From Gaiellaceae bacterium (GTDB taxonomy: Bacteria; Actinomycetota; Thermoleophilia; Gaiellales; Gaiellaceae), in NCBI GenBank assembly GCA_035265935.1, contig DATFOC010000076.1:4084-68083 (forward strand): 64,000 nucleotides of DNA. The letters are read 5' to 3'. The notes below the pieces were generated by a model, which was not told the DNA's origin, searched no databases, and was given only the letters and a program-made list of their open reading frames with translations. The translations under genes and the position numbers were made by a program. Position 1 is the stretch's first letter. Every line of letters begins with the position of its first letter. Positions 8,586 through 63,585 of this stretch are shown piece after piece.

Positions 8586-8754
8586 GGAGGGCTTGGTGGA
8601 ACGTCGCTCGTCGCAGGCGTGCGATGCTCGTTCCGAGGCAAGGACGCAGGGAGCGTTCGTATCGATGAGATACGGGCGCGAACTGAGGACGCAGACCTCG
8701 GGGCGAAGCAGCGCGGCGGCCCTGCGGCACAGTCGTCGTTTCGCCAAGCCCTCC
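8586..8754. repeat. Foldback element B: 169-nt long imperfect hairpin
   Basis: GGAGGGCTTGG (8586-8596) pairs perfectly with CCAAGCCCTCC (8744-8754). The helix continues inward (8597-8606/8734-8743, 8610-8617/8721-8728, 8621-8638/8696-8714) to an apical hairpin at 8653-8679. Confidence 0.7.
8652..8680. promoter_or_regulatory. Apex dyad AGCG-TT-C-GTATC-GATGA-GATAC-G-GG-CGCG
   Basis: The same 29-bp dyad architecture occurs at 10807-10835 and 61738-61766, with an AT-rich core in a GC-rich context. Confidence 0.5.
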
Positions 8755-10739: not shown

Positions 10740-10740
10740 G

Positions 10741-10902
10741 TGACCCTCCCGGTGACGTTGCCGCGTTCCTGGCGTGCGAAAAACGCCTCAGGCCTGCCAG
10801 GAAGGGCGCGTGCATATCCAAGGGATATGTGCGCGACCGAGGGGCGCGCGTGAGGTGATTTTGCAGCCGCCAGGGACACGGAGGGCGTTGCCGGGATGGT
10901 CA
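10741..10902. repeat. Foldback element C: 162-nt long imperfect hairpin filling the carboxypeptidase/pfkB spacer
   Basis: The outer stem pairs 10741-10759 with 10884-10902 (18 of 19 positions pair, 4 of them G:T). The helix continues through 10761-10774/10868-10881 and 10776-10790/10851-10864 to the apex CATATCC-AAG-GGATATG (10813-10829). Confidence 0.7.
10807..10835. promoter_or_regulatory. Apex dyad CGCG-TG-C-ATATC-CAAGG-GATAT-G-TG-CGCG (candidate operator or RNA apical stem)
   Basis: Near-perfect 29-bp palindrome about 70-95 nt upstream of the pfkB start. Shared with 8652-8680 and 61738-61766. Confidence 0.5.
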
Positions 10903-12018
10903 CCTAAACCAGCCTCCAATGTGATCCAGTGTGCGACCCGCATACCAGCCGGTGCGGTCGAAGAAGCCAGGGTCGTCGCGCGCCTCGGCCGCGATGAGCG
11001 GCGTCCGTCCGAGGAGACGCTTGCGGTCGTAGAAGCGGACCTCGCCGACGACTTGTCCCTCGCGGACGGGAAGGTCGAGCCGGGACGGCAGGACGACGCG
11101 CTCCACCAGCGGCCGCCCGATCCGGACCGGTCTCCGCATCGGCCGCGCGGCGACGACGGAAACCGGCTCCGAGCCCCACTCCGCGGGGATCCGGCCATAG
11201 ACACGGTCCGCCGACGCGAGCGGCACGAACGCGTACCGCGACATGCCCCAGGCGAGCAGCTCCTCGAGGTCCGCGTTGCGGACGGCGCGCGACGGGCTTC
11301 CGAGAATCGTCGCGTAGATCGTCACGTGGTTGCCGCGGGCTGCCGCGACCTGATTCCACCCGGCGCCGGAGGTGTGGCCGGTCTTGACGCCGAAGGTGCC
11401 CGGGAACTCGCCCAGGAGGTCGTTCCAGGTGTGGAGCGTCCGGCCGCCGGAGATCGAAGCCGACTCCTGGCGCACCAGCTGACGGATTATCGGCTCGCGC
11501 ATGGCGGCCATCGCGAGCTTCGTGACGTCCCGAGCGCTCGAGTAGTGGCCCTGCGCGTCGAGCCCATCCGGCCGGACGAAGCGCGTGTCGGGAAGCCCGA
11601 TGCTGCCGGCCGTGTTGTTCATCAGCGTCGGGAACGGCTCCCCGACCCGACCCCCGACGAACTCTCCTAGCGCAACGGCCGAGTCGTTCGCGCTCTGAAT
11701 CAGCGCGGCCGCCATCAGCTCGCGGACGCGGATCCGCTCCCCGGCGCGCAGACGGATCGTCGACCCGGTCACGCCGACGGCGTCTGGATCGACAGTCACC
11801 AGCTCGTTCGGCCTCGCGTGGGCCACGGTAAGCAAGGCGGTCATCAGCTTCGTGATGCTCGCGATCGGCAGCCGATCGTGAGCCCGGCGGGCAAGCAGCA
11901 CCTCGCCCGTCTGCGCCTCCTGCACGAGGTAGGCGCGAGCGTCGACCTCAGGAGTCGCCGCGGACGCGGCTGAGGTCGAACAGGCAAGGACAGCGACAAG
12001 GACCGCCAGTCGCTTCAC
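10900..12018 (-). CDS. D-alanyl-D-alanine carboxypeptidase (serine peptidase S11, PBP5 type)
   Basis: 372 aa. Signal peptide, SxxK active site (ASITKLMT), SGN-like and KTG (VKTGHT) motifs. Confidence 0.85.
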   Translation of the reverse strand: MKRLAVLVAVLACSTSAASAATPEVDARAYLVQEAQTGEVLLARRAHDRLPIASITKLMTALLTVAHARPNELVTVDPDAVGVTGSTIRLRAGERIRVRELMAAALIQSANDSAVALGEFVGGRVGEPFPTLMNNTAGSIGLPDTRFVRPDGLDAQGHYSSARDVTKLAMAAMREPIIRQLVRQESASISGGRTLHTWNDLLGEFPGTFGVKTGHTSGAGWNQVAAARGNHVTIYATILGSPSRAVRNADLEELLAWGMSRYAFVPLASADRVYGRIPAEWGSEPVSVVAARPMRRPVRIGRPLVERVVLPSRLDLPVREGQVVGEVRFYDRKRLLGRTPLIAAEARDDPGFFDRTGWYAGRTLDHIGGWFR

Positions 12019-51618: not shown

Positions 51619-51667
51619 CCTGGGGGTTCTGGTCGTTCGCTGGCGGTGCGGGGCCGGAGGGCACAGT

Positions 51668-51967
51668 ATGAGCAATACGGGCCCGGAGAGCCCCGTGCCG
51701 CCAGCGGGCGAAGGCGACGGCGGAGGCGAGCCTCGCTCGCCGGGAGCTGGCGCCGATCAGAGCCGCCAGGTGACCTTCGAGGAGGCTCAACGCGAGCTGG
51801 AACGGATCGTCCAGCAGCTCGAGAGCGGGCAGGCCGACCTGGACGAGGCGATCACGCTCTGGGAGCGAGGCGAGGAGCTCTACCGCCTCTGCTCCGACAA
51901 GCTCGACTCGGCGCAGGGCAAGATCGAGGAGCTCGCCCGCAGGGTGGAAGCAGTGCGTCCCTCGTAA
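51668..51967 (+). CDS. xseB: Exodeoxyribonuclease VII small subunit
   Basis: Starts at ATG 51668. The core FEEAQRELERIVQQLESGQADLDEAITLWERGEELYRLC matches XseB. Confidence 0.85.
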   Translation: MSNTGPESPVPPAGEGDGGGEPRSPGAGADQSRQVTFEEAQRELERIVQQLESGQADLDEAITLWERGEELYRLCSDKLDSAQGKIEELARRVEAVRPS

Positions 51968-60669: not shown

Positions 60670-60835
60670 CAGTGCCTCTGCAGGTAATGCAGCCCCGCTT
60701 CTGGGTCGTGAGCACCAAGCCAGAGACCGCACTCGCCCGCAGCCAAGGCTGAGAGCCTTGGTAAGGGCGAGGGTGGGCTCTGGCGCCGCGTGATCACGGG
60801 CCAGAAGCCGGCGTGTATTGCCTGTAGAGGCACTG
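60670..60835. repeat. Foldback element A: 166-nt long imperfect hairpin filling the whole C-N hydrolase/HAD spacer
   Basis: CAGTGCCTCTGCAGGTAAT (60670-60688) pairs with ATTGCCTGTAGAGGCACTG (60817-60835), with 2 G:T pairs. Inner helices are 60697-60704/60801-60808 and 60719-60738/60765-60784. The apex is CCAAGGCT-GAG-AGCCTTGG (60743-60761). Confidence 0.7.
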
Positions 60836-61561
60836 TTACGGCGTAGGAGTTGGCCACCGGTAGGCATCTGCCTGCCTGCTGGCCAGCGAGGGAAGCTTCG
60901 CGCGAACGTTCTCGAGCCGACGCCTGTCGAGCTCTGCGGAGATCACCGTCTCCTCGTCCGGCGCACACGCGACCACGGTCCCCCACGGATCCGCGATCAG
61001 CGAGCGCCCGTAGCTGAGACGCCCCGGCAGCGTCTCGCCGATCTGGGCCGCGGCCGCGACGTAGTACTGATTCTCGACTGCACGGGCACGGAGCAGCAGC
61101 TCCCAGTGATCCTTTCCGGTGTACAGCGTGAAATGCGCCGGAACCGTGACGAGGTGCGCGCCCTGGAGCGCGAGGATCCGGTAAAGCTCGGGGAAGCGGA
61201 CGTCGTAGCAGACGGTCAGCCCGGTGGCCCAGCCTTCCACCTCGAGGACGACCGGCTCGGCGCCCGGCTCCTCCGCGTCCGACTCCCGATACACGTGGCC
61301 GCCGACCTCGACGTCGAACATGTGGATCTTCCGGTAGAGGCCGGCGATCGACCCGTCCGACTCGAAGACGATGCTCGTGTTGGAGAGCTTGTCGCGACCC
61401 TCCCGACGCTCGGTGATCGAGCCGCCGACGAGCGTGATCCCGTGCCCGCTCGCCCAGGCCGCCATCGCCTGAACCGACTCGCCGTCCTCGAGCGTCTCCG
61501 CTGCACCATGGAGCACGTCGGGGGTGCCGATCGCGTTCCACTTCTCCGGGAGGACGACCAC
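60836..61561 (-). CDS. Carbon-nitrogen hydrolase (nitrilase superfamily); true start probably upstream (CTG at 61684)
   Basis: The ORF track starts at GTG 61561 (MVVLPEKWN). The same frame upstream encodes the conserved N-terminus ...LRVACVQLTSRDDKAANIEKAEQLVARAAATGAD without an ATG/GTG/TTG. Catalytic Cys region: GLTVCYDVRFPE. Confidence 0.85.
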   Translation of the reverse strand: MVVLPEKWNAIGTPDVLHGAAETLEDGESVQAMAAWASGHGITLVGGSITERREGRDKLSNTSIVFESDGSIAGLYRKIHMFDVEVGGHVYRESDAEEPGAEPVVLEVEGWATGLTVCYDVRFPELYRILALQGAHLVTVPAHFTLYTGKDHWELLLRARAVENQYYVAAAAQIGETLPGRLSYGRSLIADPWGTVVACAPDEETVISAELDRRRLENVRAKLPSLASRQADAYRWPTPTP

Positions 61562-61670
61562 GTCGGCGCCCGTCGCCGCCGCGCGTGCGACGAGCTGCTC
61601 GGCTTTCTCGATGTTCGCCGCCTTGTCGTCCCGGCTCGTGAGCTGGACGCAGGCGACGCGAAGCGTGTCA

Positions 61671-61833
61671 GGAGTTCGTTTCAGGGTGATGCTCGTCGTC
61701 AGGGTGCGATGGGTGGATGCCAGGCCCGGACGCAGACCGCGTCCATATCAAGTCGATATTGGCGCGGTTGAGGACGACGCCTGGCGCCGCCCAGCACGGC
61801 CTGGCGGCACAGCCTCACTCTGGAACGAGCTCC
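61671..61833. repeat. Foldback element D: 163-nt long imperfect hairpin in the divergent C-N hydrolase/MFS spacer
   Basis: Pairings: 61671-61693 with 61811-61833 (19 WC, 3 G:T, 1 mismatch); 61700-61716 with 61787-61803; 61719-61725 with 61779-61785; 61735-61744 with 61761-61769. The apex is ATATC-AAGTC-GATAT. Confidence 0.65.
61738..61766. promoter_or_regulatory. Apex dyad CGCG-TC-C-ATATC-AAGTC-GATAT-T-GG-CGCG
   Basis: In register with the dyads at 8652-8680 and 10807-10835. It lies centrally between two divergent genes. Confidence 0.5.
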
Positions 61834-61861
61834 GAGCATCCAGTGGCAGGATAGCCCCGCT

Positions 61862-63094
61862 TTGGAAGTGGCAGCAGACAGACCAGGGCGCGCACGCGCC
61901 CTCCATGCCCTGCGCAGCAGGGACTTCCGCCTGCTCTGGAGCGGCCAGACGATCTCGCTCGTCGGCGACGGAGCCTTCCTGGTGGCGCTCGGCTGGACGA
62001 GCTTCGCTCTGACGGGGTCGAAGAGCACCCTCGCGCTCGTCCTCCTTGGACACAGCGCGGCGATGCTCGCGACGCTGCTAATCGGCGGAGTGCTCGCCGA
62101 CCGCTACCCGCGCCGCACGCTCATGATCATCTCCGACCTCTCGCGCTGCGCGTGCATGGTCGTCCTCTTCGCCGTGGACGTGAGCGGCAACCTCGAGCTC
62201 TGGAGCCTCATCACGCTCGCCGTCCTCTACGGGGCGGGCGACGGGTTCTTCTACCCGGCCTACGGCGGGATCGTTCCGCTGGTCGTCGACGAGCACCATC
62301 TCGCGTCGGCAAACGCGCTCACCGGCCTCTCGCGCCAGGCCGCCTTCGTCGTCGGGCCGGCTGTCGCGGGCGTCCTCTACGGCGTCGCGGGAGCGTCGTC
62401 CGTGTTCGCGCTCAACGCGGTCAGCTTCGTCGTCGCGGCCGCGCTCATGGCCATGGCGCGCCCGCGCGGGTTCGAGCGCGACGAGCCGCAGGGCACTCTC
62501 AAGGAGATCGCCGACGGCCTGCGCTACGTCCTCGGCGTCCCGTGGCTCTGGATCACGATCTTCCTCGCCTCGTTCATCCTCATGGTCGCCATGGCCCCGT
62601 ACACGGCGCTGCTGCCTGCGTTCGTCGAGGAGCAGTTCCACCGCGGCGTCGGCTCGTACGGCACGCTCTTCACGCTCCAGTCGCTCGGCATGGCAGTCGG
62701 GAGCCTTGCGTTCGGCCAGACGAACCCGAGCCGCCGGCGCGTGATCATCATGTATCTGCTCTTCGCAGCCAATGACATCTGCGTGATCGCCATGACGCTG
62801 ACCCACTCCTTCAGCCTTGCCTGCGCCCTCGTCGCGGCGCGAGGGGTCTGCATCGGCTACGGGATCGGGGTCTGGACCACGCTCTTGATGCAGCAGGTCC
62901 CGTCGTCGAAGCTTGCGCGTGTGACGAGCCTCGACTTCTTCGGATCCTTCGCGCTGATCCCCGTGGGCTACGCGCTGACCGCAGTCGTGGCAGGGTCGTT
63001 CTCGCCTGCAACGCTGTTGTTCGTCGGATTCACGCTTTCGGCCATCCTCTGGATCGCTCCGCTCGCGTCGACGCGGGTGCGCACAGCCGCATGA
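61862..63094 (+). CDS. MFS transporter (EntS/DUF894-like)
   Basis: 410 aa. FRLLWSGQTISLVGDG, GGVLADRYPRR, 12 TM segments. TTG 61862 or GTG 61868 start. Confidence 0.88.
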   Translation: MEVAADRPGRARALHALRSRDFRLLWSGQTISLVGDGAFLVALGWTSFALTGSKSTLALVLLGHSAAMLATLLIGGVLADRYPRRTLMIISDLSRCACMVVLFAVDVSGNLELWSLITLAVLYGAGDGFFYPAYGGIVPLVVDEHHLASANALTGLSRQAAFVVGPAVAGVLYGVAGASSVFALNAVSFVVAAALMAMARPRGFERDEPQGTLKEIADGLRYVLGVPWLWITIFLASFILMVAMAPYTALLPAFVEEQFHRGVGSYGTLFTLQSLGMAVGSLAFGQTNPSRRRVIIMYLLFAANDICVIAMTLTHSFSLACALVAARGVCIGYGIGVWTTLLMQQVPSSKLARVTSLDFFGSFALIPVGYALTAVVAGSFSPATLLFVGFTLSAILWIAPLASTRVRTAA

Positions 63095-63486: not shown

Positions 63487-63498
63487 CCTGTGCGCTCT

Positions 63499-63572
63499 CG
63501 GGGTGTGGCGCAGCCTGGTAGCGCGCTCCGTTCGGGTCGGAGAGGTCCCCAGTTCAAATCTGGGCACCCCGA
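63499..63572 (+). tRNA. tRNA-Pro (anticodon CGG)
   Basis: Hand-folded cloverleaf: acceptor CGGGGTG/CACCCCG; D arm GCGC-AGCCTGGTA-GCGC; anticodon arm CTCCG-TTCGGGT-CGGAG; T arm CCCAG-TTCAAAT-CTGGG; discriminator A. No encoded CCA. Confidence 0.93.
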
Positions 63573-63585
63573 TTAGATTCCTCGT

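What the first reader, a model, noticed from the sequence alone, without database searches (positions are those of the whole stretch)
61671..61833. Element D: a 163-nt hairpin between divergent genes, covering the apparent start of the C-N hydrolase
The palindrome is centred exactly on ATATC-AAGTC-GATAT (61745-61759). The outer helix 61671-61693 / 61811-61833 has 19 WC pairs, 3 G:T pairs and one mismatch. The left arm contains the only plausible start (CTG 61682-61684) of the minus-strand C-N hydrolase. The right arm ends 29 nt before the MFS transporter start, so on the + strand the element would be the MFS 5' leader. There are about seven G:T pairs versus one A:C pair on the + strand.
Basis: seen in the sequence. 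Interest (0 to 1): 0.65.

Follow-up and report, generated by a model that had tools for sequence, protein, structure and literature searches.

The report
Mobile hairpin repeat splitting a gene start
The 163-base hairpin is real, but it is not a purpose-built control element: it is one copy of a previously undescribed small mobile repeat that litters the genomes of soil Gaiellales bacteria, and this copy landed just after the start codon of the C-N hydrolase gene.

Summary
Positions 61671-61833 fold into one 163-nt hairpin: -112 kcal/mol on the + strand (z = -10.4) against -82 on the - strand, with 10 G:U pairs and 1 C·A mismatch.

The hairpin is not unique. The 64-kb window holds four full-length homologous copies, all in + orientation: A 8586-8754, B 10740-10903, E 60670-60835 and D. 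A search with the conserved apex found more than 116 loci, all in Gaiellales/Gaiellaceae/Thermoleophilia soil MAGs. These gave 123 copies, mostly 163-164 nt.

Family features:
- a highly conserved central core;
- hypervariable but base-paired terminal about 22 bp;
- TA/YTA at both junctions;
- ends that abut stop and start codons;
- filled and empty orthologous sites;
- near-identical copies at different loci in one genome.

This makes it a MITE-like non-autonomous mobile element. No transposase partner was found.

Orthologous hydrolase loci lack both D and E. They show that the native start (TATCCT, 8 nt, ATG) now lies to the right of D, at 61853-61848 and 61839-61837. D is therefore a roughly 164-nt, frame-breaking insertion after codon 1-2, not an intergenic regulator.

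One feature goes beyond a textbook MITE: strand-specific wobble pairs and compensatory changes, including changes at orthologous copies, point to a single-stranded form under constraint.

The parts
61671..61833 (+). Element D: full-length copy (163 nt) of the Gaiellales hairpin repeat, of the 'type 2' terminal subfamily. The + strand is the better-folding ('model') strand.
   Evidence: Fold. Family CM R2 scores 135 bits on + against 40.7 on -. D is 91% identical to D-type copies in other MAGs.
61692..61813 (+). Conserved core of the element. It includes the internal loop with GGACGC on both sides and the apex.
   Evidence: Alignment A7 of 97 copies: central columns are 90-100% conserved. The D core is about 99% identical to L075/L034.
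61745..61759 (+). Apex: ATATC-aagtc-GATAT. The family motif is RTATC-N5-GATAY, with a variable loop.
   Evidence: The closing pairs are conserved in 93-97 of 97 copies.
61671..61691 (+). Left terminal module (GGAGTTCGTTTCAGGGTGATG). It is subfamily-specific and pairs with 61814-61833.
   Evidence: Differences from the type-2 consensus are compensated in the right module.
61814..61833 (+). Right terminal module (CTCACTCTGGAACGAGCTCC).
61837..61839 (-). Native ATG start codon of the C-N hydrolase. It is now separated from the gene body by element D and is out of frame with it.
   Evidence: Alignment with orthologues L117-L120: GCTATCCTGCCAGCCG-ATG-TCC-GGC-ACG-CTG versus window GCTATCCTGCCACTGG-ATG-CTC-[D]-T-GAC-ACG-CTT.
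61848..61853 (-). TATCCT, a -10-like hexamer lying 8 nt upstream of the native ATG, with no Shine-Dalgarno sequence between them. Inferred promoter of a leaderless hydrolase mRNA.
   Evidence: The (G)CTATCCT motif is conserved at the same distance from the start codon in nearly all of about 27 orthologous loci, despite different upstream neighbours. Its function is inferred.
61699..61839 (-). 46-codon reading frame opened by the native ATG. It runs through the element and ends at TGA 61701-61699.
   Evidence: Translation. The stop overlaps an in-frame CTG of the hydrolase frame at 61702-61700 (sequence).
61682..61684 (-). It lies inside the left arm of the element.
   Evidence: No evidence that it is used.
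60836..61663 (-). Body of the C-N hydrolase gene (LRVACVQ... to stop TAA 60836-60838). It is intact.
   Evidence: Pfam CN_hydrolase, E = 7e-63, profile positions 1-255 of 256. 84-90% aa identity to L117-L120.
60670..60835 (+). Element E: a divergent full-length member (166 nt hairpin). It exactly fills the gap between the hydrolase stop and the HAD hydrolase start ATG 60669-60667.
   Evidence: Fold of -131 kcal/mol, z = -12.3. R2 scores 24.6 bits, E = 0.0036, on the + strand. E is absent from L117-L120, where stop and start are 1-5 nt apart.
8586..8754 (+). Element A: a type-1 copy (termini GGAGGGCTTGG...CCAAGCCCTCC), 3 nt from the stop of a minus-strand gene.
   Evidence: 144 bits.
10740..10903 (+). 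Element B: a type-3 copy. It fills the gap between the stop of a D-Ala-D-Ala carboxypeptidase-like ORF and the start of a PfkB-like kinase ORF (names judged by eye from the ORF translations; no family search run). It is conserved at the orthologous site in L021.

Best explanation
Element D is one copy of an undescribed, roughly 163-bp, non-coding, hairpin-forming mobile repeat family (MITE-like), found here only in Gaiellales/Thermoleophilia.

Shown:
- The family is multi-copy.
- Copies are near-identical at unrelated loci.
- Orthologous sites exist both with and without the element.
- Junctions carry TA/YTA on both sides.
- Ends abut stop or start codons.
- The whole length is a covarying hairpin.

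Inferred mechanism: the element is mobilised in trans by a transposase that is not encoded by the element. That enzyme cuts at the inverted termini and inserts at TA-containing sites, duplicating 2-3 bp, as IS630/Tc1-mariner or IS5-type DDE enzymes do. In a 69% G+C genome such sites are concentrated at stop codons and gene boundaries, which would explain where copies sit.

Copy D landed 3-4 nt after the ATG of the C-N hydrolase. It therefore splits the gene's leaderless-type promoter and start codon (61853-61837) from the rest of the CDS with a 164-nt, frame-breaking insert. Predicted consequence (inferred): transcription still starts at the old site and D is transcribed in antisense orientation (the weaker fold). 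Normal translation of the hydrolase is lost or depends on a makeshift start, either CUG 61702-61700 overlapping the uORF stop or CUG 61684-61682.
For: Repeat family:
- A CM built from D alone hits A at 70 bits and B at 51 bits in the window.
- The apex pattern finds more than 116 stretches, all in Gaiellales-type MAGs.
- This gives 123 distinct copies with a length mode of 163-164 nt.

Mobility:
- D-type copies that are nearly identical sit at different loci of one MAG (L032 with two copies, L078, L079).
- Filled versus empty orthologous sites were found for L074/L041/L039, L013/L023, L105/L102, L102/L105 and L017/L064.
- D and E are both absent from the orthologous hydrolase loci L117-L120.

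Junctions:
- Type-1 flanks read C32 T31 A36 | T42 A27 out of 47 copies.
- The flanks of D-type (type-2) copies in the listing read TTA|GAACTCG...CGAGTTC|TTA as a direct repeat in five copies (L079, L034, L032, L078, L105).
- Empty sites carry a single TAG/TTAG/TAA.
- Stop codons lie at distance -1 to 0 from the element ends in most abutting cases.

Other:
- No ORF of its own and no Rfam family.
- Native start of the hydrolase is located by orthologue alignment; the resulting uORF is.
Against: - No autonomous element with matching ends was found in about 1.3 Mb of held loci, so the transposase and the DDE mechanism are assumed.
- Among the apex-pattern-selected copies, the termini (which a transposase should recognise) are the most variable part and the core the most conserved. 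15% of copy pairs with at least 95% identical cores have unrelated termini. This is the reverse of a textbook MITE.
- Wobble pairs are strongly strand-specific (8.2 versus 2.2 per copy; 116 of 117 copies fold better on one strand). Double-stranded cut-and-paste does not explain this.
- TA duplication cannot be told apart from 'the element carries one TA' using sequence alone.
- D itself has no recognisable TA duplication: its flanks read ..gtca|GGAG...CTCC|gagc.
- Resident orthologous copies are more conserved (93-94%) than their flanking coding DNA (83-91%). This hints at constraint beyond selfish spread.
Confidence: 0.8

Rival explanations
1. The family is mobile but moves as a single strand, in a REPIN/RAYT-like or IS200/IS605-like way. 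A Y1/HUH-type enzyme, or another structure-specific enzyme, would recognise the folded hairpin of one particular strand through the conserved apical core. It would cut at the base next to TA. The terminal stem would only need to pair, which is why it is free to vary.
For: - Wobble pairs are conserved on one strand only (for example, columns 82:102 are U:G in 93 of 97 copies). G:U outnumbers A·C about 5:1 even in the variable termini.
- 33 of 38 pairs show compensatory changes.
- The core is conserved while the termini are swapped.
- The AT-rich apex sits in a GC-rich stem.
- All 13 neighbour pairs less than 60 kb apart share orientation.
- Long-term retention with structure-preserving changes at orthologous sites matches what is reported for REPINs (PMC3337134, PMC3116915; abstracts).
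Against: - No RAYT or Y1 gene was identified, and none was searched for genome-wide.
- Most copies carry inverted termini and TA on both sides, which looks like a target duplication.
- Orientation shows only a weak link to GC skew or gene strand (about 60:40). It is random for pairs more than 100 kb apart, unlike the replichore-wide bias of IS200/IS605.
- There is no conserved GTAG-type tetranucleotide as in REPs.
Confidence: 0.2
2. The copies, or many of them, have been taken over by the host as structural RNA or DNA elements at gene boundaries. Possible roles are transcription terminators, 3'-end mRNA stabilisers, intercistronic spacers that supply or mask a ribosome-binding site, or recombination or protein-binding sites. 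Conservation would then reflect host function. This is compatible with a mobile origin.
For: - Copies abut stop codons or exactly fill stop-to-start gaps (B and E).
- Type-3 left ends read outward as CCGGGAGGGTCAC|ATG, a Shine-Dalgarno-like sequence placed before the downstream start.
- Orthologous copies are 93-94% identical while their flanks are 83-91% identical. Changes are compensatory or fall in unpaired positions.
- REP and MITE elements are known to have such effects (review PMC3184786).
Against: - In co-directional gene pairs the strongly folding strand is antisense to the mRNA in 36 cases and sense in 16. This is the opposite of what selection for a strong RNA hairpin would give.
- Location at gene ends is also what TA-site targeting plus purifying selection predicts.
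- D disrupts a gene start, which is hard to see as beneficial.
- There are no expression data.
Confidence: 0.15
3. D is a locus-specific cis-regulatory hairpin, such as a 5' leader or riboregulator of the MFS transporter, or an operator dyad for the divergent pair.
For: D lies 28 nt upstream of the MFS start and folds best on the MFS sense strand. The central dyad is AT-rich.
Against: - The same sequence occurs beside unrelated genes in dozens of genomes.
- It is absent from orthologous loci.
- The strand bias is a family trait.
- In the closest orthologues there is no MFS gene at this position.
Confidence: 0.04
4. D is a chance palindrome or an assembly artefact (foldback chimera).
For: None beyond the fact that long palindromes can arise from assembly errors.
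Against: z = -10.4 with 0 of 200 shuffles as good. Homologous copies occur in more than 40 independent assemblies from different projects, including long-read MAGs. Covariation is strong.
Confidence: 0.01

Closest known systems
Bacterial MITEs that fold as long hairpins and use TA targets: Correia/NEMIS elements of Neisseria and ERIC of enterobacteria (own knowledge); Nezha and Chunjie of cyanobacteria (PMC3184786)
   Same: Small size (about 100-200 bp), no coding capacity, inverted ends, short TA-containing flanking repeat, many copies, and filled and empty sites between relatives. They sit at gene boundaries and inside transcripts. Predicted RNA hairpins are very stable: Chunjie about -98 to -130 kcal/mol per PMC3184786, versus -110 to -131 here.
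   Different: Within the set of copies retrieved with the apex pattern, the terminal about 22 bp differ completely between subfamilies while the central about 120 nt is almost invariant. Wobble pairs are strand-specific. The hairpin runs the full length (about 66 pairs). No parent IS is known. The host is high-G+C Actinomycetota (Gaiellales), for which two full-text literature searches returned nothing.
REPINs (REP doublets forming hairpins), mobilised by RAYT transposases (PMC3116915, PMC3337134)
   Same: A long imperfect hairpin repeat in extragenic space. Compensatory changes keep the hairpin. A single-stranded form is implied. The elements persist at orthologous sites over long times and are restricted to one lineage.
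   Different: In REPINs the conserved parts are the terminal REP units with a GTAG-type motif, and there is no target duplication. Here the centre is conserved, the ends vary, and TA flanks both sides. No RAYT has been identified.
Rickettsia palindromic elements (RPE) and mycobacterial MIRUs (own knowledge)
   Same: These are repeats found inside or between genes of operons, sometimes within coding sequence, with ends overlapping start and stop codons.
   Different: RPEs insert in frame and are translated. MIRUs are tandem direct repeats. D breaks the reading frame, and the family is a single hairpin unit.
Integron attC sites (own knowledge)
   Same: Structure-defined, sequence-variable imperfect hairpins that act as one particular strand and flank single genes. 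E and D bracket the hydrolase gene.
   Different: There are no R/L core sites (GTTRRRY/RYYYAAC). The central core is conserved, copies are scattered rather than in an array, and the neighbouring genes have mixed orientations.

Membership tests
MITE (non-autonomous DDE-transposon derivative) | Small (under about 400 bp), no transposase gene | tested here: met
   157-169 nt in 115 of 123 copies. The only ORFs through D are read-through frames.
MITE (non-autonomous DDE-transposon derivative) | Terminal inverted repeats | tested here: met
   The whole element is an inverted repeat. Termini pair in every subfamily.
MITE (non-autonomous DDE-transposon derivative) | Target-site duplication flanking the element | tested here: inconclusive
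   TA/YTA occurs on both sides in most copies, and a single TA occurs at empty sites. The same pattern would arise if the element carried one TA itself. Size (2 or 3 bp) is ambiguous. D's own flanks are degenerate.
MITE (non-autonomous DDE-transposon derivative) | Multiple copies, with presence/absence polymorphism between relatives | tested here: met
MITE (non-autonomous DDE-transposon derivative) | Ends shared with an autonomous IS that supplies the transposase | tested here: not met
   No isolated arms or termini flanking an ORF in 196 held loci plus the window. Whole genomes could not be searched, so this is absence of evidence within a limited sample.
REPIN/RAYT system | Two inverted REP units (conserved, about 20-40 nt, GTAG-type motif) at the ends of the hairpin | tested here: not met
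   The ends are the variable part. There is no conserved GTAG; the flanks read CTA/TTA...TA.
REPIN/RAYT system | A single-copy RAYT (Y1 transposase) gene flanked by the repeats | not testable with these tools
   Only 8-kb loci around copies are held. Recurrent neighbouring ORF families were clustered, but none was run against a protein-family library.
REPIN/RAYT system | Hairpin maintained by compensatory change; single-stranded intermediate implied | tested here: met
   92.9% of cells paired versus 79.8% in shuffles and 34-50% in slid controls. 33 of 38 pairs have double changes. Strand asymmetry is shown.
IS200/IS605-derived PATE | No inverted termini; distinct subterminal hairpins at the left and right ends; insertion 3' of a fixed tetra- or pentanucleotide | tested here: not met
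   A single full-length hairpin with inverted termini. The left flank is only CTA/TTA-like.
Integron attC | R''/R' core sites RYYYAAC...GTTRRRY at the base of the hairpin | tested here: not met
   The termini GGAGTTCG...CGAGCTCC, GGAGGG...CCCTCC and GTGAC...GTCAC do not fit.
Described structured RNA family (Rfam 15) | Match to a curated covariance model at its gathering score | tested here: not met
   The only hit in the window is tRNA-Pro. The best sub-threshold hits on D, E and a type-1 copy score 11-26 bits, far below their cut-offs.

The most novel reading that the evidence does not exclude
The family may be a structure-guided mobile element of a kind not yet described in Actinomycetota. 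In this reading, a conserved about 120-nt apical core, with a purine-rich internal loop carrying GGACGC on both sides and an RTATC-N5-GATAY apex, is what a dedicated and still unknown enzyme recognises on one folded strand (ssDNA or RNA). The basal about 22-bp stem would be exchangeable. Resident copies would be kept under structural constraint and in locally concordant orientation, making this a REPIN-like long-term genomic resident rather than a decaying MITE.
Probability: 0.15. Interest if true: 0.65.

Novelty: new member of a known kind. Interest (0 to 1): 0.38.

Why it matters
For this locus:
- The odd 'startless' C-N hydrolase is explained. A mobile hairpin split the gene from its start codon and promoter, so annotation pipelines will mis-call or truncate it.
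- A second copy (E) pushed the hydrolase and the downstream HAD gene 166 nt apart.

For the lineage:
- Gaiellales are abundant, almost uncultured soil Actinomycetota. A repeat present about once per 15 kb in this window, sitting on stop and start codons, will affect gene calling, operon prediction, assembly and possibly gene expression across the order.

For mobile-element biology:
- The family offers a clean natural data set, with more than 100 copies, several subfamilies, and orthologous filled and empty sites.
- It can be used to ask why a MITE-like element keeps a strand-specific, covarying hairpin and a conserved core while its termini change.

Tried and rejected
- **Known RNA family.** Rfam was run at gathering score on the whole window, and at E ≤ 10 on D/E and on a type-1 copy. 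Nothing was found.
- **Exact inverted-repeat finder.** It missed D because of the G:T pairs. A sliding-window fold and a self-blast recovered A, B, D and E.
- **MAFFT alignment of A, B and D with RNAalifold.** The right arm was misaligned, so the structure was poor. I replaced it with a CM built from D plus its MFE structure, and later with a family CM.
- **Autonomous partner.** Searches for the terminal sequences outside known copies found only roughly 60-bp internally deleted derivatives. nhmmer with separate left-arm and right-arm profiles found no isolated arms. Clustering of 845 neighbouring ORFs gave recurrent families (the largest looks like a long membrane protein), but none was run against a protein-family library, so a recurrent transposase was not excluded.
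- **Phage or plasmid origin.** The apex pattern gave 0 hits in IMG/VR.
- **Replication-linked orientation.** GC skew and coding-strand majority give only about 60:40. Orientation is random between copies more than 100 kb apart on the same contig. A strict replichore rule is therefore rejected, and the short-range concordance remains unexplained.
- **attC reading.** I considered it because E and D bracket one gene. It was rejected for lack of R/L boxes.
- **Nested insertion of the core into a small pre-existing MITE.** The roughly 61-bp mini elements retain pieces of the core ends, so they are deletion derivatives, not empty precursors.
- **Literature.** Searches for Gaiella/Thermoleophilia repeats or MITEs found nothing specific.

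Full report
**1. The observation.**
- As RNA, the + strand folds into one unbranched hairpin of 66 pairs at -112 kcal/mol. Dinucleotide shuffles give -66 ± 4.4 (z = -10.4; none of 200 as stable).
- The - strand reaches only -82.3 kcal/mol.
- The outer helix has 19 Watson-Crick pairs, 3 G:U pairs and one mismatch. The centre is ATATC-AAGTC-GATAT at 61745-61759.
- The + strand has 10 G:U pairs and one C·A mismatch.
- The C-N hydrolase frame (Pfam CN_hydrolase, E = 7e-63) runs into the left arm. It has no ATG/GTG/TTG upstream of GTG 61561. CTG 61684-61682 is in frame.

**2. It is not unique.**
A sliding-window fold and a self-comparison of the window showed other hairpins of the same size, each folding 20-30 kcal/mol better on the + strand. 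They lie at 8586-8754 (A), 10740-10903 (B) and 60670-60835 (E).
- A, B and D share sequence, about 70% in a plain alignment.
- A covariance model made from D alone finds A at 70 bits and B at 51 bits on the + strand.
- A family model run with filters off finds A (144 bits), D (135), B (100) and E (24.6; E = 0.0036), all on the + strand.
- A shorter hairpin at 51633-51711 has a related apex.

**3. The family.**
The conserved apex pattern GCGTNCRTATC-N5-GATAYNKGCGCG was scanned against one genome per prokaryotic species. Every one is in a MAG labelled Gaiellaceae, Gaiellales, Thermoleophilia or unclassified Actinomycetota/Actinomycetes from soil projects. No hit was found in IMG/VR.

The models recover 123 distinct copies, and 115 of them are 157-169 nt long, with a mode of 163-164.

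An alignment of 97 non-redundant copies (A7) shows three features:
- A central region, GGCAAGGACGCAGG-GAGCGTTCGTATC-N5-GATACGGGCGCGAC-TGAGGACGCCG plus adjacent stem, is 90-100% conserved.
- The 5-nt loop is free to vary.
- The outer about 22 nt of each arm fall into unrelated subfamilies that nevertheless pair. Examples are GGAGGGYTTGGCGGAAC..., AGAACTCGTTTCAGAATG... (the D type), GTGACCCTCCCGGTGACG... (the B type) and AGCGCCTAACAGAAAGG....

Because copies were retrieved by the apex pattern, the conservation of the apex itself is partly by construction. The conservation extending about 35 nt beyond it on each side is not.

15% of copy pairs whose cores are at least 95% identical have unrelated termini.

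RNAalifold and explicit pair counting give:
- 92.9% of cells paired, against 79.8% after shuffling and 34-50% when partners are slid;
- 33 of 38 pairs with changes on both sides.

The better-folding strand is the same (model) strand in 116 of 117 copies. Mean energies are -116.9 versus -89.9 kcal/mol, with 8.2 versus 2.2 G:U pairs per copy. Some wobble pairs are nearly fixed, for example U:G in 93 of 97 copies at columns 82:102. No Rfam family matches.

**4. It is mobile.**
- D-type copies that are almost identical occur at different loci within one MAG and in several MAGs.
- Comparing flanks across loci gave five cases of an orthologous site that is filled in one genome and empty in another. 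The empty sites carry a single TAG/TTAG/TAA where the filled sites have TA at both junctions.
- For type-1 copies the flanks read C32/T31/A36 | element | T42/A27 out of 47.
- The flank listing shows D-type (type-2) copies reading TTA|GAACTCG...CGAGTTC|TTA, a direct repeat, in five cases.
- Element ends lie at distance -1 to 0 from the stop codon of the neighbouring gene in most abutting cases. The stop is then formed by the flanking TA plus the terminal G or C of the element.
- Some copies exactly fill a stop-to-start gap (B and E).
- Internally deleted derivatives of about 60 bp exist.

These are the features of a MITE as defined in the review PMC3184786, which also records cyanobacterial MITEs with predicted hairpins of -98 to -130 kcal/mol. 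The one defining feature I could not show is a parent IS. No isolated ends or arms flanking an ORF occur in the held loci. Recurrent neighbouring ORF families were clustered but not annotated, so a recurrent transposase among them was not excluded.

**5. What D did at this locus.**
A scan of metagenome contigs with the hydrolase protein gave orthologous loci at 66-90% identity. None of the 30 closest has the element at this position.
- In the four closest (L117-L120) the gene begins ...GCTATCCTGCCAGCCG ATG TCC GGC ACG CTG CGC GTC GCC TGC GTC CAG, encoding MSGTLRVACVQ.
- In more distant orthologues it begins M-[PST]-D-[RL]-[LI]-RVACVQ.
- The motif (G)CTATCCT sits 8 nt before the start codon in almost all of them, with no Shine-Dalgarno sequence, whatever the upstream neighbour. 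I read this as a -10 element of a leaderless mRNA. This is an inference.
- In the window the same GCTATCCTGCCACTGG ATG is present, but to the right of D. TATCCT lies at 61853-61848 and ATG at 61839-61837 on the minus strand. It is followed by CTC, then the 163-nt element, then T GAC ACG CTT CGC GTC....

D is thus a net 164-nt insertion after codon 1-2. The old ATG is now out of frame with the gene. It opens a 46-codon frame through the element that ends at TGA 61701-61699, overlapping an in-frame CTG at 61702-61700.

The rest of the hydrolase is intact. By eye, the translation shows nitrilase-type Glu/Lys/Cys motifs (VVLPE, YRKIH, TVCYD). I cannot tell whether any protein is still made, for example by re-initiation at a CUG.

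D's own flanks show no TA repeat, and its termini differ from the type-2 consensus by compensated changes. Its core is about 99% identical to copies in other MAGs.

Element E is likewise absent from L117-L120, where the hydrolase stop and the HAD start are 1-5 nt apart. The hydrolase gene of this genome has therefore acquired one copy at each end.

**6. Mechanism and rivals.**
The best-supported account is a non-autonomous transposable element that inserts at TA-containing sites. In a 69% G+C genome such sites are enriched at stop codons and gene boundaries. I put 0.8 on 'mobile repeat copy that disrupted the gene start', and roughly even odds on the enzyme being a DDE transposase of the IS630/Tc1-mariner (TA) or IS5 (YTA/TNA) kind.

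Several results fit double-stranded cut-and-paste poorly and fit a single-stranded, structure-recognising mechanism (REPIN-like) better:
- strand-specific wobble pairs, which also hold in the variable termini (about 97 G:U versus 19 A·C cells in the outer helix);
- a conserved core with exchangeable termini;
- orthologous resident copies that are more conserved than flanking coding DNA (92.7% versus 83-85%; 93.9% versus 86-91%), with compensatory or loop-restricted changes.

Against a host-RNA function: in co-directional gene pairs the strongly folding strand is antisense to the mRNA 36 times and sense 16 times.

**7. Comparison and novelty.**
The closest known kinds are:
- TA-targeting hairpin MITEs (Correia/NEMIS, ERIC, Nezha, Chunjie);
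- REPINs, for the structural conservation.

The family is not in Rfam, and I found nothing on it in the literature library. I file it as a new member of a known kind. The conserved-core/variable-end architecture and the strand asymmetry are the points a specialist would want explained.

As a finding about element D itself, it is an ordinary transposon insertion, but one with a clear and checkable consequence for the hydrolase gene.

Noticed in passing
window 60670-60835: Element E is a 166-nt hairpin (-131 kcal/mol) that exactly fills the gap between the hydrolase stop (TAA 60836-60838) and the HAD hydrolase start (ATG 60669-60667). It is absent in orthologues L117-L120, where the two genes are 1-5 nt apart. 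It shares its mid-stem with L043:1527-1690 but has a different apex (CCAAGGCT-gag-AGCCTTGG).
   Followed up: yes
window 8586-8754 and 10740-10903: Elements A (type 1) and B (type 3) are members of the same family, both on the + strand and antisense to the surrounding minus-strand genes. B fills the stop-to-start gap between a D-Ala-D-Ala carboxypeptidase-like ORF and a PfkB-like ORF (names by eye from translations), and its left end read outward gives CCGGGAGGGTCAC|ATG, a Shine-Dalgarno-like sequence. B is conserved at the orthologous site in L021, at 92.7% identity against 83-85% for the flanks.
   Followed up: partly
window 51633-51711 (and a second hairpin to about 51770): A 79-nt hairpin with an apex GTAT-gagca-ATACGGGC resembling the family apex fills the gap between ORFs that look like xseA (stop 51618) and xseB (by eye from translations) on the + strand. 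It may be a truncated relative (R1 gives 19.8 bits, E = 0.02).
   Followed up: partly
window 61848-61853 / 61837-61839 (minus strand); L117-L145 upstream of the hydrolase: A conserved (G)CTATCCT motif lies 8 nt before the hydrolase start codon in nearly all orthologues, with no Shine-Dalgarno sequence. This looks like a -10 box of a leaderless transcript.
   Followed up: partly
window 61862-63094 versus L117-L120: In the closest orthologous loci, the divergent neighbour of the hydrolase is the CoA-binding protein gene (MRSPEQILRETKTIA...), about 21 nt away. In the window an MFS transporter gene lies between them, and its stop overlaps the CoA-binding gene start (63091). The MFS gene is therefore a lineage-specific gain, or a loss elsewhere.
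   Followed up: no
family-wide (window; L032, L043, L067, L087, L105; contig coordinates): All 13 neighbouring copy pairs less than 60 kb apart have the same orientation, although they belong to different subfamilies. Pairs more than 100 kb apart on one contig are random (5 same, 5 different). The weak biases seen for gene strand (about 63-69%) and GC skew (about 60%) do not explain this.
   Followed up: partly
L037:2462-2624 versus L038:6504-6666: The same orthologous site in two MAGs, with flanks 86-89% identical over 300 nt each, carries the element in opposite orientations. The copies are 86.5% identical when both are read on the model strand. This means either inversion in place or independent insertion into the same TA, which lies at the centre of a flanking palindrome.
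   Followed up: partly
A7 columns about 62-73 and 112-124; in D 61727-61737 and 61770-61780: A conserved purine-rich internal loop carries the same word GGACGC on both arms, as a direct repeat rather than an inverted one (AAGGACGCAGG / TGAGGACGCCG). This built-in asymmetry of the hairpin could be a protein-binding or nucleic-acid-binding site.
   Followed up: no
L034:3126-3186, L094:1435-1495, L080:~873-930: Roughly 60-bp 'mini' versions keep the terminal modules and short remnants of the core. They are internal-deletion derivatives.
   Followed up: partly
window 63498-63573: tRNA-Pro (CGG) lies downstream of the CoA-binding gene. In several more distant orthologous loci, sequence that looks like the reverse complement of a tRNA gene (by eye; no tRNA scan run on those loci) lies directly upstream of the hydrolase instead.
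   Followed up: no
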